A stretch of DNA of 64,000 nt, taken from NCBI GenBank assembly GCA_041661545.1, contig JBAZUH010000001.1, positions 467,877-531,876 of the forward strand, written 5' to 3'. Every line of letters starts with the position of its first letter. Position 1 is the first letter of the stretch. The translations under genes were made by a program, and so were the position numbers. Below, in pieces: positions 1,058 to 58,966 of this stretch. The notes beneath the pieces are model-generated. The model ran no database searches and had not been told where the DNA came from. It saw nothing but the letters and a program-made list of their open reading frames with translations. Source of the DNA: Candidatus Staskawiczbacteria bacterium (GTDB lineage: Bacteria; Patescibacteriota; Minisyncoccia; Minisyncoccales; Staskawiczbacteraceae).

Positions 1058-2182
1058 CTATGTTTCTAATCCACCTAACGCCACCCCTGTTGCCACCGAA
1101 AAGCTTGGGGCTATTTTTTCTAAAGTATCTCCTAAAATTGGCGGGTACAAAAGCTCTGAAAAACAATTGGGAATTTCCACTTTTTTCTTTAAAACTTCTG
1201 AAAAATATTCTTTAAGGCCGGGCAATTTAGAAGTGCCACCAGTTAAATAAATTACATCTATATCTTTGCCCTCTTGTTGATAAACATCAGACATTACTCT
1301 TTTTATTTCAACTATTAATGGATCTATTAATAAATATAATGTTTTAGAAATTTCTTCTTTGGTAGAGGTTAAACCTTCTCTATTTTTTAATTCCTCTGCC
1401 TGATCATGTCCTAAGTCTAAAACCGAAGCAATACTATAAGTTAGCTGACCTCCTGCAAAATCAAAACTATAACTTTTCTTTAAAGAATTTTTATAAACTA
1501 TACTAATAGTTGTGCTTTGCACTCCTATATCTACTAGACAAGCATAGTTTCTATTTTCTTTAATTAAAGACCTAACCAATCCCATTGCTTCGGCTTCTAC
1601 TGCATATAAATCTACGCCTGCTAGCTGAGCGATTTTTTGATAGTCTTGTATTATTTGATTTGGTATTGCAACTAAAAATATTTTCAAAGCCGAGTGCTTA
1701 TCTCCAGGAGTTCCACCAGTTAATTGCCAGTCTAATGTTGTTTCAGCCACTGGCAATGGTATATATTGCGAAGCGTTATAATAAACTGCATCTTTTATTT
1801 CGTTAGCATTCATTGGAGGCAACTCAAAAGAAGTACAAAAAGTTGAAAAATCAGGAATTGAAAATATAGCTGCCTTAGTTCTTATTTTTGCTTCATCTAA
1901 AATTGCTCTAACTGCCCTAGAAACAAAATAATTAGAAAGCAAATAGCTTCCTTTTTCAACGCCATGAAACGGCTCTTTATAAAGGGCCGAGGATTTAATT
2001 TCTCCGTAGTTTTCTAATGTTTTTCCCTGACCCCATCTTGAAAGTTCAACTATTTTAATGCCCGCAGTACCAACATCAATGCCTACCATTTTTTTAGGAA
2101 AAAACATCTTCAAGGGATTGGAGAAAATATTTAACTTTTTAATCGATTCTATATTAAAACTGGACAAAGGATTTGAACTCAT
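1058..2182 (-). CDS. pilM: Type IV pilus assembly ATPase-fold protein PilM (actin/FtsA-like)
   Basis: Actin-fold motifs GIDVGTAGIKIVEL, DIGVQSTTISIV and LTGGTSKLPGL. About 370 aa, followed by a TM/coiled-coil PilN-like gene. An internal start (MFFPKKMVGIDVG) is possible. Confidence 0.7.
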   Translation of the reverse strand: MSSNPLSSFNIESIKKLNIFSNPLKMFFPKKMVGIDVGTAGIKIVELSRWGQGKTLENYGEIKSSALYKEPFHGVEKGSYLLSNYFVSRAVRAILDEAKIRTKAAIFSIPDFSTFCTSFELPPMNANEIKDAVYYNASQYIPLPVAETTLDWQLTGGTPGDKHSALKIFLVAIPNQIIQDYQKIAQLAGVDLYAVEAEAMGLVRSLIKENRNYACLVDIGVQSTTISIVYKNSLKKSYSFDFAGGQLTYSIASVLDLGHDQAEELKNREGLTSTKEEISKTLYLLIDPLIVEIKRVMSDVYQQEGKDIDVIYLTGGTSKLPGLKEYFSEVLKKKVEIPNCFSELLYPPILGDTLEKIAPSFSVATGVALGGLET

Positions 2183-2221
2183 AATTAATTAATTATACAA
2201 TTAAATAAATAAAACAACACT

Positions 2222-2971
2222 GTGGATAAGTCACCTAACAAATTTAAAGAATTTACTAAAGATTTGCTTTTTCCAAAGTCGTGTTTAGGGTGTCAAAAAG
2301 AAGGCCTTTATCTTTGCGATGATTGCCGAACTATTTTAGATATTAATGAATTTGATTATTGTCTTTGTAGCAAAAATCCTATTCGATTTTTGCCCGAACA
2401 AAAAATGGGCACGTGCAATAGGTGCCAAAATAGAAAACTTTCTGGTCTTTATTGTGCTCTTTCTTATAAAGACAAGCAATTAACGAAAAATTTAATTTAC
2501 CAATTTAAATATCCCCCACATTTAAAAGACTTAGCAAAAACATTAGCATCAATTTTAATTGAACATTTTGTGATTTCTGGCAAAAATACAAATGAAATTT
2601 GGGAAAACTCTATTTTGATTCCTGTTCCATTAGATAAAAATAAATTAAAAAATAGAGGGTATAATCAAGCCGAAGAATTAGCAAAAGAATTATCAAAAAT
2701 TTTACAAATTCCAGTAGTTTCTGATGTTTTAACAAAAATAAAACTCACTAAGGCTCAAGCAGAATCTAATAAAGAAGAACGAGAGAAAAATTTGCTGAAC
2801 GCTTTTTGTGTAAACAAAAATTTGGCTAAGTCGGACTTAGCCAAATTTTATAAAGTTTTTTTGGTTGATGATGTTTACACTACTGGCTCTACAATGGAAG
2901 AATGTGCTTCTGTTTTACGCCAAGCCGGTGCCAAACAAGTTTGGGGCATTTGTTTGGCACGCGAAGACTAA
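2222..2971 (+). CDS. comF: ComF family protein (phosphoribosyltransferase domain, competence-associated)
   Basis: N-terminal Cys pairs (CLGCQ..CDDC, CNRC) and a C-terminal PRTase motif VFLVDDVYTTGSTMEE. GTG start. Confidence 0.85.
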   Translation: MDKSPNKFKEFTKDLLFPKSCLGCQKEGLYLCDDCRTILDINEFDYCLCSKNPIRFLPEQKMGTCNRCQNRKLSGLYCALSYKDKQLTKNLIYQFKYPPHLKDLAKTLASILIEHFVISGKNTNEIWENSILIPVPLDKNKLKNRGYNQAEELAKELSKILQIPVVSDVLTKIKLTKAQAESNKEEREKNLLNAFCVNKNLAKSDLAKFYKVFLVDDVYTTGSTMEECASVLRQAGAKQVWGICLARED

Positions 2972-2973
2972 TT

Positions 2974-3366
2974 TTAAATTTTTTCTACAGTTGTCCAGTC
3001 ACCATCTACCCACAACATTACTATTTCAATTGGAAAACCAAATGAACCAATAACTTCTTTGCATTTTTTAAGTTGTTCAATTTGTTCTTCTTTTTCAGCT
3101 GGATTTCCAGCACATCCAAAGTGCCCAACAATTGCTAACTGCTTAGAACCGTGATGATGAACTGAAATTTCAACTCTTTTTTTAATATCATCAATAACTG
3201 CCATATCGCAATCATTTTTTTCGCATAAAATTTTATTTGGACCAGGCTCGGTTATCATGTCTACATAATCAACGCCATAATTTTTTTTCATATAATCTTT
3301 AACCGCATCTTGAACCCTACCGTCCATACAATTTATTGCACACGCAAAAGTTTTATCTGTTGTCAT
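2974..3366 (-). CDS. Hypothetical small protein with beta-carbonic-anhydrase-like CxDxR / HxxC motifs
   Basis: 130-aa ORF with host-like composition. Motifs NCMDGR and GHFGCAG are present. The functional call is tentative. Confidence 0.55.
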   Translation of the reverse strand: MTTDKTFACAINCMDGRVQDAVKDYMKKNYGVDYVDMITEPGPNKILCEKNDCDMAVIDDIKKRVEISVHHHGSKQLAIVGHFGCAGNPAEKEEQIEQLKKCKEVIGSFGFPIEIVMLWVDGDWTTVEKI

Positions 3367-3463
3367 AATTTAAAATTTAATTTTATATAAATAAAAATAT
3401 CATAAAAACTAATATTTTACAAATTGACTTTAGTGTATTTTGGGGTTAGAATAAAAACCACTT

Positions 3464-3548
3464 GGAGGAGTCGCATAGTGGCTATTGCACCGGTCTTGAA
3501 AACCGGAATCCTTCACAGGATTCGTGAGTTCGAGTCTCACCTCCTCCG
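3464..3548 (+). tRNA. tRNA-Ser(UGA)
   Basis: Hand-folded cloverleaf: acceptor GGAGGAG/CTCCTCC, anticodon loop CTTGAAA, long variable arm, T-loop TTCGAGT. Confidence 0.9.
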
Positions 3549-3613
3549 CCTTCGCCTCGCTGAAGCTCGGCTTCGGCGAGACAAAGTCCGCCGAGTTGAA
3601 AAAAATAAAAAAT

Positions 3614-25492: not shown

Positions 25493-27289
25493 ATGCCAAC
25501 GAACCAACCCCAAACCGAAACCATGAAAACCATGATCCAATTGGCGACTTCGATCGCCCTGATGATCATTCTTGGTGCCTGCGGCCCTCGAGGTAGCAGC
25601 ACCAACAACGGCGACGAGAGCGGTGACCCCGCCCTCGCGAGAATCAACAACGACCTCAACAACCTGAGCAGGCGCTCCGAAGCCGCCACCTCAACGGTGG
25701 CCGAGCGGTCAAATGACGAACGGTTTGCGGCTCTCCAGCTGCAGCTGGCCGTCATTTCAAACCAGCTCGCCGTCAGTGGCGTCGCAGTTTCGCCGGTGTC
25801 GGACACCGACGAACTCATCATCGCCTCCTCCGCAACCCCCGCCGAACGCGGCATCGTGTTGGCCGGAACCGGTGATACGGTTCCAGGTGAGAATCGACCA
25901 AGATTAGGCACAGCCGCGGGCGGATTGATTCCGTCCCAGGCCACCCAAATCCCGGTTGCCGCAACAACGCCAACTGCACCAACCCAAACCGCACCGCAGC
26001 CAACCCCAACCGCACCAGCCGCGAGAACGGTGGTCCAAGCATGGACCTACCCAGTTGCACAGGGAGACACATACGAGGGCTTAGCCAAAGCCTTCGGCAT
26101 TCCCGAAGCCGCGCTTCGGCGGGCAAACAACGACGTGGTGCTCGAAGTCGGGCGCGTAATCGTTGTACCGATGCCGTTGGACACTACCGCCACCGCCACC
26201 GCCAACAACACCGAGCTAATTCGCGAAATCCGGGGCGGCAACATCGCCATCCTGGAGGTGCTGGAGGCGCTACGGGCGCAACAACAACAGGCTCAGCAAG
26301 CGCTGGCTCAAACGGAGAGACTGGGTGACCAGTCCTTCCGCGGGGTCTCAGCGGCCGAATACGCCGCCTGCCCAACCTGCCAAGCGGCACGGCAACCGAC
26401 GTATTATGCGCCGGAGCCGTCGTACGCCCAGCCGTATCAGCAACCCTACTGTCAGCCGAGCTACGGCTACCAACGGCCATATTACCAGGACTACGGCAGT
26501 TACGGTGGTGGCTACGGTGGAGGAAACAGCATTAGTATCAACTTGTCGCAGTCGCAACAGCAACAGCAACAGGGGTACTACCCCCAGCCGTGCCCAACGC
26601 CGACACCACAACCCCAACCGTACGATCCCTGCCCACCCGGCTCGCCGAGAAATCGGCAGTTGGGTTGGCAACCAGGTGATGGCCAATGGTGGAATAACGG
26701 CACCGGCAGGAATGCCGGAGCCGTGGCAGCGAGCTTAACCCCATACAGCAGCGGGGACTACCTCGCCGCTGCAAGCAGGTCAAGCTCCTCCAGCCCATCC
26801 GTTTCGGCATTGTCGCCAGGCGGAACGCCTTCACCAACCCGCCTAAATGGGGGCCTCAGAGCTCTCAACAACGGCGGAACTGGTGCGGCACCAACAGCGC
26901 GCGGTGGTGGTTACGACTACCGTGCAGCTTTGGCCAGCAGAACTCCGGCCGCAAGTCGGAGCACCGCAACGGCCAATAAGCCGGCAAGTCGGGTACAAAC
27001 CTACAAGCCGGCGACGAAGCCGTCAACGGCACGCGCGACACCCAGTCGTGCGGCACCCAGTCATGCGACATCGAGTCGGCAGACGATGAGTCGGGCGACA
27101 CCAAGTCGTACAACGATGAGTCGTGCACCCAGTAGGACTCCGAGTCGGCAGACGATGAGGACACCCAGTCGCACTCCGAGTCGGCAAACGATGAGGACCC
27201 CGAGTCGTGCGACAGTCAGTCGGGCACCGAGTCGTGCTCCGACGATGAGTCGGGGATCGTCAAGCGGCGGCATGATGCGCCGCAGGTAA
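25493..27289 (+). CDS. GC-rich LysM-domain lipoprotein with Gln/Tyr/Pro-rich and Ser-Arg repeat regions
   Basis: Lipobox MKTMIQLATSIALMIILGAC (alternative start at 25523). LysM-like segment YPVAQGDTYEGLAKAFGIPEAALRRANNDVVLEVGRVIVVP. C-terminal TPSRQTMRTPSR repeats. The opposite-strand ORFs are GC artefacts. Confidence 0.75.
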   Translation: MPTNQPQTETMKTMIQLATSIALMIILGACGPRGSSTNNGDESGDPALARINNDLNNLSRRSEAATSTVAERSNDERFAALQLQLAVISNQLAVSGVAVSPVSDTDELIIASSATPAERGIVLAGTGDTVPGENRPRLGTAAGGLIPSQATQIPVAATTPTAPTQTAPQPTPTAPAARTVVQAWTYPVAQGDTYEGLAKAFGIPEAALRRANNDVVLEVGRVIVVPMPLDTTATATANNTELIREIRGGNIAILEVLEALRAQQQQAQQALAQTERLGDQSFRGVSAAEYAACPTCQAARQPTYYAPEPSYAQPYQQPYCQPSYGYQRPYYQDYGSYGGGYGGGNSISINLSQSQQQQQQGYYPQPCPTPTPQPQPYDPCPPGSPRNRQLGWQPGDGQWWNNGTGRNAGAVAASLTPYSSGDYLAAASRSSSSSPSVSALSPGGTPSPTRLNGGLRALNNGGTGAAPTARGGGYDYRAALASRTPAASRSTATANKPASRVQTYKPATKPSTARATPSRAAPSHATSSRQTMSRATPSRTTMSRAPSRTPSRQTMRTPSRTPSRQTMRTPSRATVSRAPSRAPTMSRGSSSGGMMRRR

Positions 27290-27631: not shown

Positions 27632-28540
27632 ATGGCAAGCAAGAAAAAAACCTCGCCGGCAGGGACGCCGGCAACACCACCGGCGAAACCGGCCCCCCGG
27701 CGACGCCCAGCGTCGTTGGCACCGGCGGCAACATCGCCGCTCGTGGCGACGACAACCCCGACACCCCCGCTACCCGCGGGGACAATCAGGCGGACGCCGA
27801 CACCGGCGCCCTCGGGTGCCACAACCCCAACTCCAACCCCGACGCCGCCAGCGCCCACTCCGGCACCGGCACCCGCAACGTTGACGACGGTGGCAACACC
27901 GGCGACAGCACCGGTACCGCCTGCGCCAACAACCCCAGCAGTAACACCGCCATCGCCGACTCCGGCACCCGCCGTCACCCCGACCCCGCCCGCCGCGGTC
28001 ACACCGCGCAGAGCAGGGAGACGAATGGTCGTCACCCGGGTTGTAGGTTTAGTGTTCGTCGTGCTGTTGATAAAATGGGCCTTCAGGTCCGACGAACCGG
28101 CGGCAACGGCGACAACCACCAACAACGCGGCGTACGTCACGGCGTTGGAAAAAGCCACCGCGCTCCTGAAAAAGCAAGCGGTGGAAATGGACCGCCTAAC
28201 GGCGGAGGTTGAAGCCCTCAAAAAGGGCAACACAACCCCGCCCAAGGGCGGCACCACCGCTGGTACTGGTGGCACCGGTACTACCAACCCCAACCCCCAA
28301 CCCCCAACCCCAGTAAACTATCGTCGGTCGGCACCGACGATAGAATCCGCCCATGTCCGCCAACTCCAGGCGGATATCATGGCCATGAAGGTCAAAGCTG
28401 CCCGGACTGTTCGGGCAGCTGCATGGGGTCCAATGGACCCCGACTCAAGGGCAGCAGCACAAGATCAGGTCAACGCCCTTGAAGTGGAGTTGGCCAATAT
28501 GGAGGCCGTCCTGGCTCACGCCAGGGCAACAGGAATGTGA
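27632..28540 (+). CDS. GC-rich Pro/Thr/Ala-rich single-pass membrane protein with a C-terminal coiled coil
   Basis: Basic N-terminus MASKKK, a long PTPAP-rich region, TM helix MVVTRVVGLVFVVLLIKWAF, and heptad-like ALEKATALLKKQAVEMDRLTAEVEALKK. Confidence 0.7.
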   Translation: MASKKKTSPAGTPATPPAKPAPRRRPASLAPAATSPLVATTTPTPPLPAGTIRRTPTPAPSGATTPTPTPTPPAPTPAPAPATLTTVATPATAPVPPAPTTPAVTPPSPTPAPAVTPTPPAAVTPRRAGRRMVVTRVVGLVFVVLLIKWAFRSDEPAATATTTNNAAYVTALEKATALLKKQAVEMDRLTAEVEALKKGNTTPPKGGTTAGTGGTGTTNPNPQPPTPVNYRRSAPTIESAHVRQLQADIMAMKVKAARTVRAAAWGPMDPDSRAAAQDQVNALEVELANMEAVLAHARATGM

Positions 28541-31024: not shown

Positions 31025-33715
31025 CTAGTCTTTGAGGCATGCCCCCGATGCAACTTTGTCTCCTTCATCTAATCTCATTATTCTAACTCCTTGGGTATCT
31101 CGCCCTAAAAGAGATATAGACTTTATACTTGTTCTTATAACTTGCCCTTGCTGAGAAATAACAATTAAATCTTCCTCTTCTGCTACATCTTCTACAATAG
31201 CCGACATAATAATATGGCCTGTTTTGCTTGTTATTTTTGCTGTTTTAATTCCCGAGCCTCCCCTGCCTTGAGTTTTATATTGCCCAATATCTGTTCTTTT
31301 ACCATAACCATTTTCCATAACAATCAAAAAATATTTCTTTATTTTTTTTCCTTTGTCCGCCGTAGCTTCAGCGGAGGAGGATACAACATCCATTCCAATT
31401 ACTTCATCACCCTTTTTCAAACTAATACCTTTAACCCCGGCAGCTCCTCGGCCCATTGGTCTTATATCTTTTTCTTTAAATCTAATAGAAATTCCATTTT
31501 TAGTTGCTAAAATTAGGTCATCTTCACCAGTTGTTTTAACAACTTTTTTTAACGCATCTCCTTTTTCTAATTTTATAGCAATAATTCCACTTTTTCTAAC
31601 ATTTTCAAATTCTGACAAATCAGTTTTTTTGATTCTGCCATTTTTTGTAATCATTACCAAAAATTTATCTCCGCTTTGTTGCCTGGCTTGCCCCGCCGTA
31701 GCTTTAGCGGAGGAGGGCATTGGAATTAATGACAAAACTTTTTCTTCGTTTGATATTTCTAAAAAGTTTAGCAAACCTCGGCCACGAGCAACTCTATTGC
31801 CTTCTGGTATTTCATAAACTTGTGTTTGAAAAACTTTTCCAGAATCAGTAAAAAACATTAAATTATCATGGGTTGAAGCAGTCAAAAAGTGCTCTACAAT
31901 ATCATCTTGCATTGTTTTCATACCCATTAAACCCTTTCCTCCTCGTTTTTGTAATTTATAAGTAGCTGGATTTATTCTTTTTATGTAACCGCCTGTAGTT
32001 AAAGTTATAATTGTTTCTTCTAGTGGAACCAAATCAACTTCGGTAATTTCTCCCAGTTTCCCTTTAACAACTTTTGTTTTTCTTTTATCACCAAACTTTT
32101 CTCTTATATCTAAAAGCTCTTTTTTGATAATGGCTTTTAATTTTTCTGGACTTTTTAAAATAGCCAATAATTCTTTTATTGCTTCTAAAATTGCTTTTAG
32201 TTCGTCTTCTATTTTTTTTCTTTCTAATCCTGCTAATGTTTGCAACCTCATTTCTAAAATTGCTACTGCTTGCCTTTCGGTTAATTTAAATTTTTTAATT
32301 AAATTAGCTCTTGCTTCTTCTTTATCTGCAGATTTTTTAATTGTTTGAATAACTGCATCAATGTTTTTTAATGCAATCATTAAACCCTCTAATATATGGG
32401 CTCTTTCTTTGGCTTTTTCTAAATCAAATTGTGTTCTGCGAGTAACAACCTCTTCTCTGTGTTTAATAAAATATTTTAAAACATCGGCCAAAGATAAAAT
32501 TTCTGGCTGAATGCCATCTACTAATGCCAACAAATTTAAGTGAAAAGTTTTTTGAAGGCTAGTAAACTTGTATAATCTATTTAAAATTCTTTGTGGCTGA
32601 TAGCTTTTTTTAACATCAATTACAATGCGCATGCCTTCTCTGTCAGATAAATCTCTTATATCTTTTATTCCCTCAACCTTTTTTTCAGAAACCAATTCTG
32701 CCATTTGCTCTACCAAAGTAGATTTTAAAACTTGATAAGGAATTTCTGTAATTATAATTTGTTCTGCTCCATCTTTTTTTTCTACAACATCTGCTTTTCC
32801 ACGCATTAAAATAGCCCCCTTACCCTGAGAATAAGCAGTAATTATTTCTTTTTGGTCATAAATTATACCACCAGTTGGAAAATCAGGGCCCTGCACAAAT
32901 TCAAACAAATCTTCTGTTTCTGCTTTTGGGTGCTCTAGCACATATATAGAGGCATCAACAACTTCGGTTAAATTATGAGGTGGAATATTTGTTGCCATGC
33001 CAACGGCAATGCCCAAAGAACCATTTAAAAGCAATTGTGGCAATGGACTTGGCAAAACAGTTGGCTCGGTTGTCATGCCGTCATAGTTGTCAACAAATTT
33101 TACAGTATCTTTTTCAATATCTTTTAACATTTCGTCTCCTAGCTTTGTTAGCCTACATTCTGTATACCTAGCAGCAGCAGCTCCATCACCATCTATAGAA
33201 CCAAAGTTTCCTTGGCCATCTACCAATGTGTATCGCATATTAAAATCTTGCGCCATACGCACCAAACTTTCATAAACAGCTGTATCACCATGAGGGTGAT
33301 AACTTTTCAAAACCTCTCCAACTACCGCCATAGACTTTCTGTGTTTTGTGTTAGACCTTAAACCAGATTGCATCATTGCATATAAAATTCTTCTGTGAAC
33401 TGGTTTTAAACCATCTCTAACATCGGGCAGAGCACGTGCAACAATAACCGACATTGCATAATCAATGTATGATTCTTTAAGCTCGGTTACCATTTCGCGC
33501 TGAGTCACATTTCCCCTATTACTGTCGCCATGTTTTCCATCTTCTTGAGCTTTAGCCCTCGATTTTTTTTCTTCGCCCTTTTCTTCCTTATCTCCCTTTT
33601 CTTCACTTTTTTCATCCTTCTCCTCGGCTTCCTCGCCCGCCGAAGCCTCGGCGGAGGCTGGGTCTATTTCATCGTCAAGCTCCTCGTTAGATTTTGATTT
33701 TTTTATTTTGGCCAT
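31025..33715 (-). CDS. gyrA: DNA gyrase subunit A
   Basis: YAMSVIVARALPDVRDGLKPVHRRILY and C-terminal beta-pinwheel repeats. There is an acidic N-terminal extension and three in-frame GC-rich hairpin inserts. Confidence 0.95.
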   Translation of the reverse strand: MAKIKKSKSNEELDDEIDPASAEASAGEEAEEKDEKSEEKGDKEEKGEEKKSRAKAQEDGKHGDSNRGNVTQREMVTELKESYIDYAMSVIVARALPDVRDGLKPVHRRILYAMMQSGLRSNTKHRKSMAVVGEVLKSYHPHGDTAVYESLVRMAQDFNMRYTLVDGQGNFGSIDGDGAAAARYTECRLTKLGDEMLKDIEKDTVKFVDNYDGMTTEPTVLPSPLPQLLLNGSLGIAVGMATNIPPHNLTEVVDASIYVLEHPKAETEDLFEFVQGPDFPTGGIIYDQKEIITAYSQGKGAILMRGKADVVEKKDGAEQIIITEIPYQVLKSTLVEQMAELVSEKKVEGIKDIRDLSDREGMRIVIDVKKSYQPQRILNRLYKFTSLQKTFHLNLLALVDGIQPEILSLADVLKYFIKHREEVVTRRTQFDLEKAKERAHILEGLMIALKNIDAVIQTIKKSADKEEARANLIKKFKLTERQAVAILEMRLQTLAGLERKKIEDELKAILEAIKELLAILKSPEKLKAIIKKELLDIREKFGDKRKTKVVKGKLGEITEVDLVPLEETIITLTTGGYIKRINPATYKLQKRGGKGLMGMKTMQDDIVEHFLTASTHDNLMFFTDSGKVFQTQVYEIPEGNRVARGRGLLNFLEISNEEKVLSLIPMPSSAKATAGQARQQSGDKFLVMITKNGRIKKTDLSEFENVRKSGIIAIKLEKGDALKKVVKTTGEDDLILATKNGISIRFKEKDIRPMGRGAAGVKGISLKKGDEVIGMDVVSSSAEATADKGKKIKKYFLIVMENGYGKRTDIGQYKTQGRGGSGIKTAKITSKTGHIIMSAIVEDVAEEEDLIVISQQGQVIRTSIKSISLLGRDTQGVRIMRLDEGDKVASGACLKD

Positions 33716-38103: not shown

Positions 38104-38207
38104 TAAACTAGCTCATTTACTCATATAACGTTTTGATAAACACCGTCAGCCTACAGACACCCAACAAACCAACAACACCAACAACCGCCCGCAAGGGCCC
38201 TACCAAA

Positions 38208-39716
38208 GTGAAAGCAACCAAAAAAGCCGCGAAACAAGCGGCAGACACCAACGCCGTGCAAGCGGCGCCCGCAGAAGAAACCACCCCCGTGGTGGCCACC
38301 AAGACCAAGCCAGTTGCCAAGGGTGGCGCGAAAGCCCGCCCCAAAACGACTGTGCTCAGCAGTGCCAACTCCAACCCGTTCGCCAACTTGGGTGACGCCT
38401 TGACCGAATTGAGCCTCGGCGTGCCCGACCTCGACTCGCTCGCCGACGTTGACAGCGTTGGGCAAGGCCTCGAGGCCAAGAAGGCCGCCGCCGTCAAAGT
38501 GCGCGAAGGCATCGCCAATGCCCTCAAGTTCCTGCTTGGTCTTTTCCGCCGGCTTGCCGGTTGCGAAGACCGCATCGAGAAGCGGTTCATCCAGGAGGAG
38601 CTCCAAGAGTCGGAAGACAATGCCCGGGGTTACTTGGGCAAAGTGCTCAACCTCAAGGGCGCCCTCCGCACCATCGCCGCCGGCACGTACCTCAAAACCG
38701 TGCTCACCATGGACTACTCCTCGCCCGACGAGGTCGCCATGATGCTCCGGAATTTGGTGGACAATGGGCTCATCGTCTCCAAGGGTGAAGGCCCCTGCGT
38801 GACCATTGGGTATCAGGTGTATCGCCTTGGTGACTTCGGCTTCGACGCCGAGGATGTCAGGGAAATCACCGGCGTGATTGAGCAGTTCTCCCGCGTGGTG
38901 AAAACGAAGGAACGCGAACGGAGGGCGCAACTCCAGAAGGAAATCGCGGGGCAATCCCAGATTTCCCTGCAAGAAGCGCTTGACGGGAAAACCGGCAAAT
39001 GCCTGGTGACTGTTCCGGCCGAATCGTTCATCGACCGCTCCACCAAAAAGCCCGTGTGGCGTGGAGGTGGCGAGGTCCTATTCGACTTTGCCGACAAGCT
39101 CATCAAACCAATCCGCGCCAGCGGGTCGGTGGAACGCTTGGTCGGCGACCTCGCTGACCGTGGTGGGAGAATCACCCGCCACTCGCTTACGTGGGAGAAG
39201 GCCTCCGGACTGAACGGACTGGCGCAGGGCATCCAGCGGAAACTGGATGTCTCATGGAGTGATGCCCAGGATTTGGCCCGCGACTTCCTCACCATTTGGC
39301 ACCTCCTCAACCGTGGCATTCGCCACGCCGAGGAAGTCGTCAAGCAGGCTGACGAGCTGGCCCAACTGACTGCGAAGGCCGAGATCACCGCCGTGCAGTT
39401 CTTCGGGCTCAACGGCACCAAGGACGGCAAGCCCATCGAGGGCAAGCCTGCTCTCCTGCAACTCCAGGGAGTGGTCCGCTTGGAGGACCGCAACCTGTAC
39501 AATCCGTTCTTTCTCGCCAGGAGGATGACGGAAGAAGGCAAGGAGCTCGTCGAGGCGCTGGAAATTCCGGCATACCTCGAGGGATACCTTGAAACCGGGA
39601 AGAAATTCCCAATCGATCGCTGGAACACCCCTGTCGGCGACCTGATTCAAAAGATCAAGGGGCAAACCGAGATGACTGTCGCGACCGCGGCCGCCATCGC
39701 CAACCCGGCCGAGTGA
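38208..39716 (+). CDS. GC-rich protein of unknown function with a Lys/Ala-rich (histone H1-like) N-terminus
   Basis: The long ORF opens at a TTG at 38133. GTG at 38208 is favoured because the CCAAC-rich leader plus AAGGG resembles the leader of 27632. Amino-acid composition is balanced on the + strand. The minus-strand ORFs are GC artefacts. Confidence 0.7.
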   Translation: MKATKKAAKQAADTNAVQAAPAEETTPVVATKTKPVAKGGAKARPKTTVLSSANSNPFANLGDALTELSLGVPDLDSLADVDSVGQGLEAKKAAAVKVREGIANALKFLLGLFRRLAGCEDRIEKRFIQEELQESEDNARGYLGKVLNLKGALRTIAAGTYLKTVLTMDYSSPDEVAMMLRNLVDNGLIVSKGEGPCVTIGYQVYRLGDFGFDAEDVREITGVIEQFSRVVKTKERERRAQLQKEIAGQSQISLQEALDGKTGKCLVTVPAESFIDRSTKKPVWRGGGEVLFDFADKLIKPIRASGSVERLVGDLADRGGRITRHSLTWEKASGLNGLAQGIQRKLDVSWSDAQDLARDFLTIWHLLNRGIRHAEEVVKQADELAQLTAKAEITAVQFFGLNGTKDGKPIEGKPALLQLQGVVRLEDRNLYNPFFLARRMTEEGKELVEALEIPAYLEGYLETGKKFPIDRWNTPVGDLIQKIKGQTEMTVATAAAIANPAE

Positions 39717-42816: not shown

Positions 42817-43275
42817 ATGACAACATTATTAGAAAAATTTAATAAAGACCAAGAGAAAAAAGTTCCAGATTTAAAACCTGGCGATACAATTAAAGTACAC
42901 CAAAAAATTAAAGATGGCGACAAAGAAAGAATCCAAATATTTGAAGGAATAATTATTGCTAAAAAACATGGCAAAGGAATTTCTGGCACAATAACTGTTA
43001 GAAAAGTTGTTGATGGTGTTGGAGTTGAAAGAATTTTTCCAATTAACTCCCCTGCTATAGAAAAAATAGAAGTTGTAAGACATGGAAAAGTAAGAAGATC
43101 AAAACTTTATTACTTAAGAACAGCCAAAGGTAAAAAAGCAAAATTAAAGAGAAAAGATTTTGCAGCAGCAATTGCTCCAGAGCCCGAACAAAATTCTTTA
43201 GATGCTGAAACCAACGAAGAGCCAGCTGTTTCTGAAAAAACTGAAACAACCGAAACAAAAGAAGTAGCAGAATAG
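42817..43275 (+). CDS. rplS: 50S ribosomal protein L19 with an acidic C-terminal extension
   Basis: [31 protein letters not shown]...[10 protein letters not shown]. Confidence 0.95.
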
Positions 43276-43341
43276 AATATTGCTTTTACAAACAATATGG
43301 CGGACTTTGTCTCGCCGTAGGTTCGCTACGGCGAACCGTAG

Positions 43342-43422
43342 GCGGACGTGGCGAAATGGCATACGCACTACCTTGAGGTGGTAGCGCCGCAAGGCATGAG
43401 GGTTCGACTCCCTCCGTCCGCA
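43342..43422 (+). tRNA. tRNA-Leu(GAG)
   Basis: Acceptor GCGGACG/CGTCCGC, anticodon stem-loop CTACC-TTGAGGT-GGTAG, long variable arm. Confidence 0.9.
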
Positions 43423-43447
43423 CAAGGACATATTGCCATGCCTTTTA

Positions 43448-43630: not shown

Positions 43631-43689
43631 TGTGATTATCGCCTTCGCAAATTCTGGCGGGCTTTGCCCGCCGAAGCTAGCAAGCGTAG

Positions 43690-43761
43690 GCGGGTGTCGT
43701 ATAGTGGCTATTATGTAACCTTGCCAAGGTTAAGACGGCAGTTCGATTCTGCTCACCCGCT
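43690..43761 (+). tRNA. tRNA-Gly(GCC)
   Basis: Acceptor GCGGGTG/CACCCGC, anticodon stem-loop TAACC-TTGCCAA-GGTTA. Confidence 0.9.
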
Positions 43762-43762
43762 C

Positions 43763-43925
43763 AAAGAAAAAAATCCAGAGTATTTCTGGTTTTTTTTATT
43801 TGATTGAGCAGAATCGAACTGCAGGATGGGGTCGGGAAGGAGACATCCTTCCCGTATAGGAAATTATTCAAAACCGAGGGTTTTGAAAGAGCGAAGCGAC
43901 AAGTTCCATTTCTGCTCACCCGCTC
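43763..43925 (-). mobile_element. Miniature insertion bounded by a 16-nt direct repeat of the tRNA-Gly(GCC) 3' end; conserved structured core, copy A
   Basis: TTCTGCTCACCCGCTC occurs at 43747..43762 and 43910..43925. The interior holds a terminator hairpin, an inverted T-arm fragment (43805..43824), hairpin CGGGAAGGAgacaTCCTTCCCG (43833..43854) and hairpin TTCAAAACCgagGGTTTTGAA (43867..43887). Confidence 0.6.
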
Positions 43926-44007
43926 CAATAAAAACCGCCTAATTTTAGGCGGTTTTTTGTTGTTTTTGTCCACTTGACAGCTGACCATATTTTATGTTGT
44001 AACTATT

Positions 44008-44041
44008 GACACAGAGCCCTTTCTATGCTAATATATACCCA
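44008..44041 (+). promoter_or_regulatory. Putative promoter of the 3D-domain gene
   Basis: TTGACA, a 17-nt spacer, then TAATAT. An SD-like AAGGGAG lies upstream of the ATG at 44067. Confidence 0.55.
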
Positions 44042-44066
44042 TACTTCCGAAAGGGAGTTTTTAATT

Positions 44067-44561
44067 ATGAATACATTAAAACACGTAAAAAATAGCCTTG
44101 CTTTAGTGGTCAAAACCCGCTTAGCTGGCTCTATATTTGCAAGCATTGTAATTGCTATTTGCGCTGTAGGCATAATCTTGCCTCAAGCCATATATGCTGA
44201 CCCTGCCAATACAGCAAGCGCTTCTTATGTGGCAAAAAATAGTAATGAGATAAAATCAAATGCTATTAAAACTATCAAGGTTAAGGTTACTGCTTATTCA
44301 AGCACTGCAGACCAAACTGATGATACTCCCTTTATAACCGCCTCAGGTAAAAGGGTAAAAGATGGTATAATAGCAAACAACTTATTACCTTTTGGAACAA
44401 AAATTAAAATTCCAAAATTATATGGTGATAAAATATTTACCGTGCAAGATAGAATGAATAAAAAGAAAGGCAACTTCCATATAGATATATGGATGCCAAC
44501 TAGAGGATTGGCACTTAACTTTGGATCCAAAACTGCTGAGATATTAGTTCTAGCAGATTAA
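44067..44561 (+). CDS. 3D-domain (MltA/RlpA-like fold) secreted cell-wall protein
   Basis: VTAYSSTADQTDDTPFITASGKRVKDGIIANNLLPFGTKIKIP...FTVQDRMNKKKGNFHIDIWM. The start is set at MNTLKHV because the upstream ATG at 44025 lies inside the promoter. Confidence 0.8.
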   Translation: MNTLKHVKNSLALVVKTRLAGSIFASIVIAICAVGIILPQAIYADPANTASASYVAKNSNEIKSNAIKTIKVKVTAYSSTADQTDDTPFITASGKRVKDGIIANNLLPFGTKIKIPKLYGDKIFTVQDRMNKKKGNFHIDIWMPTRGLALNFGSKTAEILVLAD

Positions 44562-44608
44562 GCAATAAACAAAAAACACCCCGACTTGCGTCGTGGGTGT
44601 TTTTTTAT

Positions 44609-44776
44609 GTGCCCGAGGCGGGACCGCTACGCTAGAACCCGTCGCTCTGCTCCTTCAAAACCCTCGGTTTTGAATAATTTCCTACACGGGAGGAAATGCT
44701 TTCCTCCCGACCCCTCCTTGGGGTTCGACTCCCGCACATTTAAAAAGAACACTATAAATAGTGTTCTTTTTTAATG
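44609..44776 (+). mobile_element. Miniature insertion bounded by a 15-nt direct repeat of the tRNA-Leu(UAA) 3' end; conserved structured core, copy B
   Basis: GTGCCCGAGGCGGGA occurs at 44609..44623 and 44777..44791. Hairpins TTCAAAACCctcGGTTTTGAA (44654..44674) and CGGGAGGAAAtgcTTTCCTCCCG (44687..44709), a T-arm fragment at 44720..44737 and a terminator hairpin at 44741..44773. Confidence 0.6.
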
Positions 44777-52408: not shown

Positions 52409-52412
52409 AAGG

Positions 52413-52497
52413 CGGAGGGGGTGAGATTCGAACTCACGAGGCTCTTGCGAGCTACGGTTTTCGAAACCGTTCCATTGAACCGCTCTGGCACCCCTCC
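52413..52497 (-). tRNA. tRNA-Ser(CGA)
   Basis: Acceptor GGAGGGG/CCCCTCC, anticodon stem-loop ACGGT-TTCGAAA-ACCGT, long variable arm. Confidence 0.9.
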
Positions 52498-58708: not shown

Positions 58709-58966
58709 ATGTATTCAGTATATATTTTACAAAGCTTAAAAGACAATAAAACATATACCGGATTTTCAGAAAATGCGCACGCTAGATTAATTGAGCACAA
58801 TTCTGGTAAAGTTGATGCGACCAAAAATAGAAGGCCGCTTAAAATTTTATTTATCGAAGAGGCAGAATGCCTAAGTATTGCCAAAAAGCGAGAGAAATAT
58901 TGGAAAAGCGGCGCAGGCAGGCGCAAATTAAAGATTTTTTTTGAAAAGGGGTTCCCGCCCATTTAA
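58709..58966 (+). CDS. GIY-YIG nuclease-domain protein (UPF0213-like, 85 aa)
   Basis: YSVYILQSLKDNKTYTGFSEN...RLIEHNSG...KREKYWKS. The ATG lies 2 nt after the tRNA-Gly(UCC) end. Confidence 0.8.
   Translation: MYSVYILQSLKDNKTYTGFSENAHARLIEHNSGKVDATKNRRPLKILFIEEAECLSIAKKREKYWKSGAGRRKLKIFFEKGFPPI

What the first reader, a model, noticed from the sequence alone, without database searches (positions are those of the whole stretch)
3545..3592. The same hairpin mini-element abuts tRNA genes and is flanked by 6-7 nt direct repeats (GGCGGN)
There are three copies. (i) At 3551..3586 (inverted) the element sits between TCCGCC at 3545..3550, which is the tRNA-Ser(UGA) 3' end, and TCCGCC at 3587..3592. 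(ii) At 43306..43340 it sits between GGCGGAC at 43299..43305 and GGCGGAC at 43341..43347, which is the tRNA-Leu(GAG) 5' end. (iii) At 43662..43688 it sits between GGCGGG at 43656..43661 and GGCGGG at 43689..43694, which is the tRNA-Gly(GCC) 5' end. All three begin CTTTGYCYCGCCGWAG. An 18-mer, GGCGAGACAAAGTCCGCC (3575..3592), recurs as its exact reverse complement at 43299..43316. Short direct repeats that copy the tRNA end look like target-site duplications at a GGCGG target.
Basis: seen in the sequence. Interest (0 to 1): 0.6.

Follow-up and report, generated by a model that had tools for sequence, protein, structure and literature searches.

The report
Palindromic repeat hugging tRNA gene ends
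Three copies of a GC-rich multi-hairpin repeat about 65 bases long sit against tRNA genes in this Patescibacteria genome; the same repeat occurs across that radiation, most often between a serine tRNA and a tiny GIY-YIG nuclease gene, and its "flanking direct repeats" are a built-in stem that mirrors the tRNA end, not insertion scars.

Summary
All three copies, the 6-7 nt repeats and the 18-mer inverted identity are at the stated coordinates and far exceed chance.

- a left arm, tCGCCTTCGC;
- hairpin GGCGGRC-TTT-GYC(N)CGCC;
- GWAG;
- a variable GC hairpin;
- CGWAG, followed by GGCGGR.

The right "repeat" is the tRNA's own end, which is also present at empty sites in relatives. The left "repeat" is the 5' arm of an internal hairpin and lies inside the inserted DNA. 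Tandem units abut with no GGCGGR between them. It is therefore not a target-site duplication.

The match is still not trivial. Left R, inner Y and right R agree in 56 of 56 distinct copies. In the window, 3 of the 4 tRNA ends that read GGCGGR are occupied, against 0 of 34 other ends.

The family occurs in at least 10 Patescibacteria lineages. It is present or absent at orthologous tRNA spacers. It typically lies between tRNA-Ser and a 77-81 aa UPF0213-type GIY-YIG gene (4 of 4 independently sampled genes).

Best reading: a selfish palindromic repeat tied to a GIY-YIG cassette that targets GGCGGR tRNA ends. It matches no Rfam family, and I found no description of it in the literature searched.

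The parts
3545..3613 (-). Copy i of the repeat, inverted. Read on the + strand: tRNA-Ser end TCCGCC 3545-3550; TTCG 3551-3554; hairpin about 3555-3582; GGCGAGAC 3575-3582; AAA 3583-3585; GTCCGCC 3586-3592. The left-arm region 3593-3613 has decayed to A/T.
   Evidence: Covariance-model hit of 53.7 bits, E 4e-12; sequence; RNA fold -23.7 kcal/mol, z -3.2.
3464..3550 (+). tRNA-Ser(tga). Its last 6 nt (TCC, discriminator G, then CC) form the right-hand 'repeat' of copy i.
   Evidence: ARAGORN and Rfam tRNA. tRNA-Ser(cga) at 52411-52497 ends in the same TCCGCC without an element, so this hexamer is native to the tRNA.
43274..43346 (+). Copy ii, full length. Decayed left arm TTGCTTTTAC about 43280-43289; hairpin GGCGGAC 43299-43305 / TTT / GTCTCGCC 43309-43316; GTAG 43317-43320; hairpin GTTCGC-TACG-GCGAAC 43321-43336; CGTAG 43337-43341; then the tRNA-Leu 5' end.
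   Evidence: Covariance-model hit of 72.1 bits, E 4e-17; sequence; fold -28.2 kcal/mol, z -3.8.
43342..43423 (+). tRNA-Leu(gag). Its 5' end GCGGAC supplies the right-hand repeat of copy ii.
   Evidence: In relatives, GC-rich hairpins lie immediately upstream of this tRNA only when it starts GCGGA(C/T) (about 9 of 19 loci), never when it starts GCGCGGG (0 of about 44).
43633..43694 (+). Copy iii, short variant. Left arm TCGCCTTCGC 43639-43648; hairpin GGCGGGC 43656-43662 / TTT / GCCCGCC 43666-43672; GAAG 43673-43676; CTAGCAAG 43677-43684 (second hairpin reduced); CGTAG 43685-43689; then the tRNA-Gly 5' end.
   Evidence: Covariance-model hit of 55 bits, E 1.7e-12; near-identical arrangement at the same spacer in L129, L137 and L165.
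43690..43762 (+). tRNA-Gly(gcc). Its 5' end GCGGG supplies the right-hand repeat of copy iii.
   Evidence: Empty orthologous sites have GCGGG preceded by A/T-rich spacers of 3-21 nt.
31659..31717 (+). Degenerate copy lying in frame inside gyrA (ORF 31025-33715, minus strand). It encodes about 10 extra residues (AKATAGQARQ) in a loop of the C-terminal beta-propeller.
   Evidence: Weak covariance-model hit, 15.4 bits, E about 0.1; sequence; Pfam DNA_topoisoIV and DNA_gyraseA_C; 10-residue gap in E. coli GyrA at this point.
58709..58960 (+). Small GIY-YIG nuclease ORF (84 codons) starting 2 nt after tRNA-Gly(tcc). It belongs to the same gene class that accompanies the repeat in other genomes, but to a different subfamily, and has no repeat here. 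It is context for the finding, not part of the three copies.
   Evidence: tblastn E 6e-15; translation; Pfam PF01541, E 3e-12.

Best explanation
The three sequences are copies of a GC-rich, multi-stem palindromic repeat of about 63-72 bp. Two are full length and one has lost its left arm. The family is spread through Patescibacteria.

Its usual home is the 3' flank of a tRNA-Ser gene. There it lies between the tRNA and a 77-81 aa UPF0213-type GIY-YIG nuclease gene. The complement of the repeat's left arm (GCGAAGGAG or GCGAAGGCG) sits where that gene's ribosome-binding site would be.

I read the repeat as selfish DNA: the cis part, or the landing pad, of a homing-type GIY-YIG cassette. It also persists and spreads as solo copies. 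It settles only against tRNA ends that read GGCGGR: 3' ends ...YCCGCC, or 5' ends GCGGR preceded by G.

The 'flanking direct repeats' have two different sources. One is the tRNA's own terminal bases. The other is one arm of an internal hairpin whose partner arm (YCCGCC) is complementary to that target. The repeat therefore carries a built-in copy and anti-copy of its target. This can serve for site choice by base pairing or microhomology, and it keeps the anti-target arm sequestered so the tRNA still folds.

Shown: the architecture, the distribution, the presence/absence polymorphism, the three-way base agreement, the linkage to the GIY-YIG gene, and a replacement tract that takes in the neighbouring tRNA.

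Inferred: that it moves, that the GIY-YIG nuclease drives movement, and that target choice uses pairing.
For: 1. **Family and range.** The core GGCGGRCTTTGYC(N)CGCCGWAG hits at least 118 stretches in one-genome-per-species contigs. The low-GC hits are mainly Patescibacteria: Saccharibacteria, Yanofsky-, Moranii-, Roizman-, Vogel-, Wolfe-, Levy-, Staskawicz-, Andersenbacteria and Paceibacterota.
2. **Context.** 33 copies lie at tRNA-Ser 3' ends, covering all four anticodons. An HMM census finds 49 copies whose GGCGG end abuts a tRNA end: 3' ends of Ser, Trp, Asp, Glu, Leu and Pro, and 5' ends of Gly, Leu, Ile and Trp.
3. **Base agreement.** Left R, inner Y and right R agree in 56 of 56 distinct copies. 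The second hairpin has at least 12 different, perfectly complementary stems.
4. **Insertion polymorphism.** In the conserved L19-Leu-Val-Phe-Gly cluster of 80 related metagenome loci, 24 Phe-Gly spacers are empty and about 11 are filled.
5. **Replacement tract.** L173 (empty) and L178 (filled) are about 99% identical up to the end of tRNA-Phe. L178 then carries the element plus a different tRNA-Gly allele and a different terminator before identity resumes.
6. **GIY-YIG linkage.** A GIY-YIG ORF (Pfam PF01541) starts 3-70 nt beyond the left arm in about 20 loci. Four family members were chosen only by protein similarity and contig length (P0013, P0039, P0086, P0052). All four have tRNA-Ser plus the element directly upstream. 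Of 33 small GIY-YIG genes in all loci, 23 lie less than 250 nt downstream of a same-strand tRNA.
7. **Repeat-like behaviour.** There are tandem arrays, fragments and stand-alone copies, and an in-frame copy in gyrA.
8. **Neighbouring selfish genes.** The same tRNA spacers in relatives hold other selfish genes: apparent LAGLIDADG ORFs (recognised by reading, not scanned against Pfam) and other GIY-YIG cassettes.
9. **Occupancy in the window.** 3 of 4 GGCGGR-type tRNA ends are occupied, against 0 of 34 others.
Against: - No movement was observed directly, and copy number per genome could not be measured. Only 64 kb of this genome and windows of 8 kb or less elsewhere were available.
- The 78-aa GIY-YIG protein has no DNA-binding domain. 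Its family, UPF0213, has no known activity.
- About half of the tRNA-Ser-linked copies, and all three window copies, have no adjacent GIY-YIG gene.
- The GIY-YIG gene lies outside the repeat's inverted arms, unlike a transposase inside an insertion sequence.
- The module is so conserved (about 70-80% protein identity across phyla) that vertical inheritance of a useful tRNA-Ser/GIY-YIG unit remains possible.
- The L173/L178 tract could be ordinary recombination.
- The gyrA copy is a weak hit in a naturally variable loop.
Confidence: 0.55

Rival explanations
1. The element is a host-useful structured RNA in tRNA precursors. It would act as a leader or trailer that insulates or directs processing of the neighbouring tRNA. 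In the tRNA-Ser module it would act as a 5' untranslated region that couples GIY-YIG translation to tRNA processing. The ribosome-binding-site-like GCGAAGGAG can pair with the tRNA tail plus UUCG, and GGCGGR, YCCGCC and GGCGGR form alternative helices.
For: - The three-way agreement of R, Y and R is what alternative pairings of a switch would give.
- The consensus fold pairs the inner CGCC with the right-hand GGCG. The minimum-energy fold of copy ii pairs the inner arm with the tRNA 5' end.
- The second hairpin keeps its stem through many sequence changes, and often has a C(UUCG)G or UACG loop.
- The left arm is the complement of a Shine-Dalgarno-like sequence 8-20 nt before the GIY-YIG ATG.
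- There is strand asymmetry: the GGCGGRC-TTT strand folds better in 42 of 56 copies, with 105 against 42 G-U pairs.
Against: - The element occurs in both transcriptional senses relative to the adjacent tRNA: antisense at 3' ends and sense at 5' ends. One RNA function cannot cover both.
- The better-folding strand is antisense to tRNA-Ser and to the GIY-YIG gene, the opposite of what a leader function needs.
- It is absent from the same spacers in many close relatives, whose tRNAs are intact.
- It attaches to different tRNA-Ser isoacceptors in different genomes.
- It also occurs in tandem, away from tRNAs and inside gyrA.
- It matches no Rfam family.
Confidence: 0.2
2. This is the first reader's model: a miniature transposon of about 27-36 nt that inserts at GGCGG and duplicates 6-7 nt of the target, giving the flanking direct repeats.
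For: - Direct repeats of 6-7 nt flank all three copies.
- The repeat base R is the same on both sides in 56 of 56 copies.
- There is presence/absence polymorphism at orthologous sites.
Against: - Empty sites lack the left repeat and a further conserved left arm of about 20 nt, so the left repeat is internal to the insertion.
- The left repeat is a stem arm paired with an inner arm that changes with it, which a duplication does not predict.
- Tandem units have no GGCGGR between them.
- Some variants have no left repeat.
- No transposase with matching terminal repeats was seen.
Confidence: 0.07
3. The element is a REP-type palindrome, moved in trans as single-stranded DNA by a REP-associated Y1 (IS200/IS605-like) transposase. 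On this reading GTAG/GAAG are the cleavage tetranucleotides, and the internal arm acts as a guide that pairs with the target.
For: - GWAG sits immediately 5' of the variable hairpin and recurs as CGWAG 3' of it. GTAG-tagged palindromes are the hallmark of REPs (PMC3733652).
- REPs inside genes, especially replication and repair genes, are reported there, and a copy lies in gyrA here.
- Y1_Tnp genes exist in this lineage: L210, and a 60%-identical one in L037 about 80 nt from element copies.
- The strand asymmetry in folding would fit a single-strand intermediate.
Against: - The Y1_Tnp genes are flanked by their own, different GTAG-tagged hairpins, CAGAAGAATGTCTTCTGTAG, not by this element.
- Only 1 of about 119 pattern loci has a Y1_Tnp gene nearby, against about 20 with a GIY-YIG gene.
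- There is no Y1_Tnp in the window.
- GAAG is as frequent as GTAG.
- Copy density (3-4 per 64 kb, all but one at tRNA ends) is unlike dispersed extragenic REPs.
Confidence: 0.1

Closest known systems
REP / REPIN elements (GTAG-tagged repetitive extragenic palindromes mobilised by RAYT Y1 transposases; Di Nocera et al. 2013, PMC3733652)
   Same: Both are short GC-rich imperfect palindromes in an AT-rich background. A G(T/A)AG tetranucleotide sits at the foot of a hairpin. Both occur singly, in tandem and occasionally in frame inside genes. Both vary in presence between relatives.
   Different: - This unit is composite: three helices plus inverted outer arms.
- It is tied to tRNA ends that read GGCGGR.
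- It carries a copy and an anti-copy of that target.
- It is linked to a GIY-YIG gene, not to a RAYT.
- The RAYT-like genes found in this lineage have different cognate hairpins.
IS200/IS605-family elements and their miniature derivatives, which choose targets by guide-to-cleavage-site base pairing (established knowledge of IS608)
   Same: Both use hairpins rather than a transposase-binding terminal repeat. Both insert on one side of a short specific sequence without duplicating it. Both have an internal segment complementary to the target.
   Different: No Y1 transposase is associated. The target-like segment is 5-7 nt and GC-rich, and it coincides with a tRNA end. Pairing as the means of target choice is inferred here, not shown.
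Free-standing GIY-YIG homing endonuclease genes in tRNA clusters (for example phage T4 SegB, PMC2330249)
   Same: A GIY-YIG gene lies between or beside tRNA genes. It is variably present. Neighbouring tRNA sequence appears to be replaced along with it.
   Different: The protein here is a bare nuclease domain of 77-81 aa of the UPF0213 type (closest solved structure BH0048), with no DNA-binding module. A conserved structured repeat accompanies it and also exists on its own. The setting is cellular Patescibacteria genomes, not phage: one chance hit in viral contigs.
Integrative elements that duplicate the 3' end of a tRNA gene (attL/attR direct repeats)
   Same: There is a direct repeat of the tRNA's terminal bases on the far side of inserted DNA, and the tRNA stays intact.
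   Different: The repeat is 5-7 nt and forms a stem arm. The DNA between the repeats is 27-45 nt. No integrase is present. The repeat also occurs at 5' ends of tRNAs.
Rickettsia palindromic elements (RPEs)
   Same: Both are palindromic repeats that can sit in frame inside essential genes, and both occur near RNA genes.
   Different: There is no sequence relationship. RPEs are about 100-150 bp and CGTC-tagged. The in-gene copy here is a single weak case.

Membership tests
Miniature transposon (MITE) with target-site duplication | Direct repeats of target sequence immediately outside the inserted DNA. | tested here: not met
   Empty orthologous sites lack the left GGCGGR and the left arm, so the left repeat is inside the insertion. 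Tandem units have no GGCGGR between them.
Miniature transposon (MITE) with target-site duplication | Terminal inverted repeats shared with an autonomous insertion sequence that encodes a transposase. | tested here: inconclusive
   The outer arms CGCCTTCG / CGAAGGCG are inverted repeats, paired in 89% of cells, but the right arm runs into the tRNA. No insertion sequence with these ends was seen. The adjacent gene is a GIY-YIG nuclease lying outside the arms.
REP / REPIN (RAYT-mobilised) | Short GC-rich palindrome with a conserved GTAG head. | tested here: inconclusive
   G(T/A)AG precedes the variable hairpin in all aligned copies, but GAAG is as common as GTAG and the unit holds three helices.
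REP / REPIN (RAYT-mobilised) | A RAYT (Y1_Tnp) gene flanked by the same palindromes. | tested here: not met
   The Y1_Tnp genes in L210 and L037 are flanked by different hairpins, CAGAAGAATGTCTTCTGTAG-like. There is none in the window.
REP / REPIN (RAYT-mobilised) | High copy number dispersed in intergenic regions. | not testable with these tools
   Only 64 kb of this genome (3 copies plus 1 degenerate) and stretches of 8 kb or less of other genomes could be read.
IS200/IS605-type element or miniature derivative | Insertion on one fixed side of a specific short target, without duplication. | tested here: met
   In all 49 copies abutting a tRNA, the GGCGGR end faces the tRNA end. This orientation rule is partly built into the model. 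There is no duplication at the true borders.
IS200/IS605-type element or miniature derivative | Y1 HUH transposase as the mobilising enzyme. | tested here: not met
   No linked Y1_Tnp gene, except in 1 of about 119 loci.
Free-standing GIY-YIG homing endonuclease cassette | GIY-YIG catalytic domain ORF next to the conserved target gene. | tested here: met
   PF01541 ORFs start 3-70 nt beyond the element after tRNA-Ser. 4 of 4 independently sampled family members show this. None lies next to the window's three copies.
Free-standing GIY-YIG homing endonuclease cassette | Site-specific DNA-binding module and demonstrated cleavage of the empty allele. | tested here: not met
   The protein is 77-81 aa, the nuclease domain only. 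The absence of a binding module was tested here; cleavage activity could not be tested.
Free-standing GIY-YIG homing endonuclease cassette | Presence/absence polymorphism with co-conversion of flanking sequence. | tested here: inconclusive
   L173 against L178: the element arrives together with a different tRNA-Gly allele and terminator in an otherwise about 99% identical locus. L178 has no GIY-YIG gene there, and ordinary recombination is not excluded.
Described structured RNA family (Rfam 15) | A match to a curated covariance model. | tested here: not met
   No relevant hit at E up to 10 over the window copies, or at E up to 1 over a full tRNA-Ser/element/GIY-YIG module.
Intrinsic transcription terminator | GC hairpin followed by a run of T on the transcribed strand. 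| tested here: not met
   Copy i is followed by a run of A on the tRNA strand. Copies ii and iii run straight into a tRNA.

The most novel reading that the evidence does not exclude
The repeat is the cis-acting part of an unrecognised class of selfish element in Patescibacteria. On this reading it is driven by a minimal UPF0213-type GIY-YIG nuclease. The nuclease acts on the folded element rather than on a DNA sequence read by a binding domain. The element finds tRNA gene ends by base pairing between its internal YCCGCC arm and the GGCGGR target. This would be a guide-and-target logic like that of IS200/IS605, but with a different enzyme. It would give UPF0213 proteins their first function.
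Probability: 0.2. Interest if true: 0.8.

Novelty: new variant of a known kind. Interest (0 to 1): 0.6.

Why it matters
- **Annotation.** The finding explains GC-rich hairpins that interrupt tRNA clusters in the tiny, AT-rich genomes of Patescibacteria. It shows that apparent target-site duplications there can be an illusion created by a stem that mimics the tRNA end.
- **A testable substrate.** The tight, previously undescribed linkage tRNA-Ser / structured repeat / 78-aa GIY-YIG gene gives a concrete, testable substrate for the UPF0213 family, whose role has been unknown since its structures were solved.
- **A hot spot.** tRNA flanks in these reduced genomes appear to be a shared hot spot for several kinds of selfish gene: GIY-YIG, apparent LAGLIDADG, and Y1 transposase.
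- **Practical consequences.** The repeat breaks short-read assemblies. The Logan contig L001 ends exactly at the tRNA-Ser/element junction. The repeat may also carry neighbouring tRNA alleles between strains.

Tried and rejected
- **Known RNA families.** No Rfam match, including ribozymes, for the solo copies or for a full module.
- **Terminator.** No T-run follows the hairpins.
- **Split-tRNA or archaeal intron reading.** Prompted by the 18-mer inverted identity. Dropped once the tRNAs proved complete and bacterial (His has an encoded G-1; some tRNAs have an encoded CCA).
- **Literature search for the sequence itself.** No paper holds the core sequence. Searches on GIY-YIG with tRNA, CPR, MITE or tRNA-Ser found nothing on this element. 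The paper on group I introns in Patescibacteria tRNA genes does not mention repeats or hairpins.
- **Phage origin.** The viral-contig scan gave one hit, a chance match inside a GC-rich coding region.
- **Orthologues of site i.** Relatives found through the neighbouring carbonic-anhydrase-like gene do not keep the tRNA-Ser cluster next to it. No filled/empty comparison was possible for copy i.
- **Covariation on the MAFFT alignment.** The conserved pairs never vary and indels misalign the variable hairpin, so the pair-count tool gave no signal. I counted stems with a script instead.
- **Naming the GIY-YIG protein.** NCBIfam and PHROGs gave no hit.
- **Exact look-up of the window's L19 protein.** It is not on record.
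- **Region 43805-44760.** It contains tRNA-like T-arm pieces. The Rfam search gave nothing usable.
Full report
**Setting**

The window is a bacterial chromosome segment of about 33% GC. It carries 19 tRNA genes and housekeeping genes: L19, FtsH, IF-2, RecG, GyrA and a pseudouridine synthase. The tRNAs are complete and bacterial in type. Homologues of a neighbouring protein are named Candidatus Staskawiczbacteria or Patescibacteria group where a name exists. The organism is therefore a member of the candidate phyla radiation.

The 18-mer GGCGAGACAAAGTCCGCC occurs once on each strand, against 0.02 expected. The 16-mer motif gives 8 matches at up to 3 mismatches, against 1.24 expected. Copy iii is one base shorter than that motif and so does not strictly "begin" with it. 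All three regions fold better than their shuffles.

**The unit is longer than described**

A scan of one genome per species with the core GGCGGRCTTTGYC(N)CGCCGWAG returned at least 118 stretches. The GC-rich hits are chance matches in coding DNA or unrelated arrays. The low-GC hits are overwhelmingly Patescibacteria of many lineages.

Aligning them shows a unit of about 63-72 nt:
- a left arm, (g)TCGCCTTCGC;
- about 9 nt of spacer;
- hairpin GGCGGRC-TTT-GYC(N)CGCC;
- G(T/A)AG;
- a second GC-rich hairpin of variable sequence, often with a TTCG or TACG loop;
- CG(T/A)AG, followed by GGCGGR.

The left arm is the inverted complement of CGAAGGCG at the right junction and is paired in 89% of cells.

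A covariance model built from these copies finds the following in the window:
- 43274-43346, 43633-43694 and 3545-3613 (minus strand), at 54-72 bits;
- one weak hit at 31659-31717.

Copy iii has an intact left arm. In copies i and ii the left arm has decayed to A/T.

**Why the direct repeats are not target-site duplications**

The gene order L19, tRNA-Leu(gag), tRNA-Val, tRNA-Phe, tRNA-Gly(gcc) is conserved in 80 related metagenome loci whose L19 is 58-87% identical.
- In 24 of them the Phe-Gly spacer is 3-21 nt of A/T-rich sequence running straight into GCGGG.
- In about 11 it holds this element.

The empty sites contain neither the left GGCGGG nor the left arm. Both therefore belong to the inserted DNA, and the only native copy is the tRNA's own 5' end. 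Likewise, tRNA-Ser(cga) in the window ends in TCCGCC without any element.

In tandem arrays the units join as CGAAG|GTCGCC, with no GGCGGR between them. Minimal variants in relatives consist of the right-hand hairpin plus GAAG against tRNA-Leu, with no left repeat.

The left repeat is the 5' arm of the conserved first hairpin.

**The match between stem and tRNA end is nevertheless real**

In 56 distinct copies, the sixth base of the left arm, its partner in the inner arm and the sixth base of the right-hand GGCGGR are as follows:

| left R / inner Y / right R | copies |
|---|---|
| A/T/A | 34 |
| G/C/G | 17 |
| G/T/G | 5 |
| discordant | 0 |

The right-hand base is fixed by the tRNA: A for Ser and Leu, G for Gly, Trp and Glu. 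A duplication would not make the inner arm follow it.

An HMM census finds 49 copies whose GGCGG end abuts a tRNA end:
- 3' ends of Ser (26 copies, all four anticodons), Trp, Asp, Glu, Leu and Pro, with the element antisense to the tRNA;
- 5' ends of Gly, Leu, Ile and Trp, with the element in sense.

In the window, 3 of the 4 tRNA ends that read GGCGGR are occupied, and none of the other 34 is. In relatives, GC-rich hairpins precede tRNA-Leu(gag) only when it starts GCGGA(C/T) (about 9 of 19), never when it starts GCGCGGG (0 of about 44).

**Linkage to a small GIY-YIG gene**

Reading the flanks of the tRNA-Ser copies showed an ORF of 77-78 codons. It starts 3-70 nt beyond the left arm, on the tRNA strand. 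It is a GIY-YIG catalytic domain (PF01541). Its closest solved relative is the UPF0213 protein BH0048, of unknown function.

The complement of the left arm, GCGAAGGAG or GCGAAGGCG, lies where a ribosome-binding site would be.

The protein family has about 1,960 clusters at E of 1e-5 or better. Identity is about 70-80% across Daviesbacteria, WWE3, Parcubacteria and others. Many sit on short contigs.

As a test free of my DNA pattern, I looked up four members chosen only by protein similarity and contig length. All four have tRNA-Ser followed by the element directly upstream.

Of 33 small GIY-YIG genes in all fetched loci, 23 lie less than 250 nt downstream of a same-strand tRNA. This includes the one in the window at 58709, which starts 2 nt after tRNA-Gly(tcc).

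About half of the tRNA-Ser-linked elements, and all three window copies, lack the gene. Copy i sits between tRNA-Ser(tga) and tRNA-Ser(gct), with its left arm gone. It looks like a module that has lost the gene.

**Signs of selfish behaviour**

- The element attaches to different tRNA-Ser isoacceptors in different genomes.
- It is present or absent among relatives.
- It forms arrays and fragments, and occurs away from tRNAs.
- A degenerate copy lies in frame in gyrA. There it encodes about 10 residues that are absent from E. coli GyrA. This is a weak hit in a variable loop.
- L173 and L178 are about 99% identical from L19 to the end of tRNA-Phe. L178 then has the element, a different tRNA-Gly(gcc) allele and a different terminator before identity resumes. 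This is a replacement tract that takes the neighbouring tRNA with it.
- In relatives the same spacers hold ORFs of about 700 nt that read as LAGLIDADG endonucleases. I recognised these from the sequence and did not scan them. The spacers also hold other GIY-YIG cassettes with their own hairpins. One of these (L182) repeats 8 nt of the tRNA-Gly 3' end around a hairpin just before the GIY-YIG start.
- A Y1 transposase gene with its own GTAG-tagged hairpins occurs in a close relative (L210). A homologue lies next to element copies in L037.

**Mechanism**

I commit, at about 0.55, to a selfish palindromic repeat tied to a GIY-YIG cassette. It occupies tRNA ends that read GGCGGR. It carries a copy and an anti-copy of that target.

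The anti-copy could pair with the target strand, or supply microhomology, during insertion or repair. The copy keeps the anti-copy sequestered, so the tRNA can still fold.

What is shown is the anatomy, the distribution, the polymorphism, the base agreement and the gene linkage. Movement, the role of the nuclease and target choice by pairing are inferred.

An alternative ordering is equally compatible with the data: the element is the landing pad, and the GIY-YIG gene invades next to it. On that view, solo copies are alleles without the gene. This would explain their uniform left border.

**Rivals**

- **A host RNA function (0.2).** It is favoured by the alternative pairings, the maintained stems, the stable tetraloops and the masked ribosome-binding site. 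It is weakened by the element's use in both senses, by its absence from close relatives, and by the better-folding strand being antisense to tRNA-Ser and the GIY-YIG gene.
- **A REP moved by a Y1 transposase (0.1).** It fits the GWAG heads and the in-gene copy. However, the lineage's Y1 genes carry different hairpins.
It is contradicted by the empty sites.

**Novelty**

There is no Rfam family. No paper in the searchable library holds the sequence or describes hairpin repeats at Patescibacteria tRNA ends or a tRNA-Ser/GIY-YIG module.

As a kind of thing it belongs with small palindromic repeats (REP, MITE, RPE) and with homing-endonuclease cassettes. The combination is a new variant: a tRNA-end mimic stem, GGCGGR specificity, and a bare UPF0213 nuclease.

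Noticed in passing
window 25493-27289, 27632-28540, 38133-39716: Islands of 55-61% GC in a genome of about 33% GC. The first two were read and encode low-complexity proteins rich in Pro, Thr, Ala and Gln, each preceded by a TTGACA...TATAAT-like promoter and followed by a GC hairpin with a T-run. The third was seen only as a GC peak with a 527-aa ORF. They look foreign or under unusual composition pressure.
   Followed up: no
window 58709-58960 (+): An 84-codon GIY-YIG nuclease ORF starts 2 nt after tRNA-Gly(tcc), with no hairpin repeat. This is the same gene-next-to-tRNA habit seen for 23 of 33 such genes in related loci.
   Followed up: yes
window 31659-31717, inside gyrA (31025-33715, minus strand): A degenerate copy of the repeat lies in frame. 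It corresponds to about 10 extra residues (AKATAGQARQ) in a loop of the GyrA C-terminal domain, compared with E. coli GyrA.
   Followed up: partly
window 43805-43870 and about 44700-44760: An inverted copy of the tRNA-Gly(gcc) T-arm is followed by a conserved GGGGTCGGGAA...TTCCCG motif. A second T-arm-like piece with the same motif lies near tRNA-Leu(taa). The motif recurs in a relative (L131). No tRNA, tmRNA or intron model matches. These may be intron-bearing tRNA genes of the kind reported for Patescibacteria (PMC13011429).
   Followed up: partly
L132, L133, L183, L195 (between L19 and tRNA-Leu); L139, L179, L183, L184, L185, L155, L176 (between tRNA-Phe and tRNA-Gly): Insertions of about 700-760 nt with their own TATAAT-like promoters. 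The ORFs in the L19-to-Leu insertions read as LAGLIDADG endonucleases (recognised by eye, not scanned against Pfam). The Phe-to-Gly insertions were not identified. The tRNA cluster appears to be a hot spot for selfish genes.
   Followed up: no
L131, L168, L192, L160; L182 3046-3120: Other GIY-YIG cassettes in the same tRNA spacers use different hairpin repeats (CTCAGGGTAAAC.../...GTTTACACTGAG). In L182 an 8-nt direct repeat of the tRNA-Gly 3' end (CCCGCTCA) brackets a hairpin just before the GIY-YIG start codon.
   Followed up: partly
L210 729-1450; L037 807-1530: Y1_Tnp (IS200/IS605-like, RAYT-like) genes of about 233 aa are flanked by their own GTAG-tagged hairpins, CAGAAGAATGTCTTCTGTAG. In L037 the gene sits where a GIY-YIG gene usually lies, next to element copies and tRNA-Ser.
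   Followed up: partly
L076, L012, L014, L042, L017, L088 (Bacteroidota); L106, L112, L020, L028 and others (Myxococcales): Bacteroidota have a 31-nt short form of the unit (GGCGGGCTTTGTCCGCCGTAGCTTTAGCGAA), often in tandem arrays; the Chitinophagaceae-type loci (L017, L076, L088) share conserved flanks, and no tRNA or GIY-YIG gene is nearby. Myxococcales have arrays of 80 or 180 nt period that share only the GGCGGGCTTTGCCCGCCGAAG core.
   Followed up: no
L001 (Logan contig SRR18595301_1203482), equivalent to window about 1840-3553: A short-read contig that encodes the window's carbonic-anhydrase-like protein exactly ends at the tRNA-Ser(tga)/element junction. This is as expected if the repeat breaks assemblies.
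   Followed up: no
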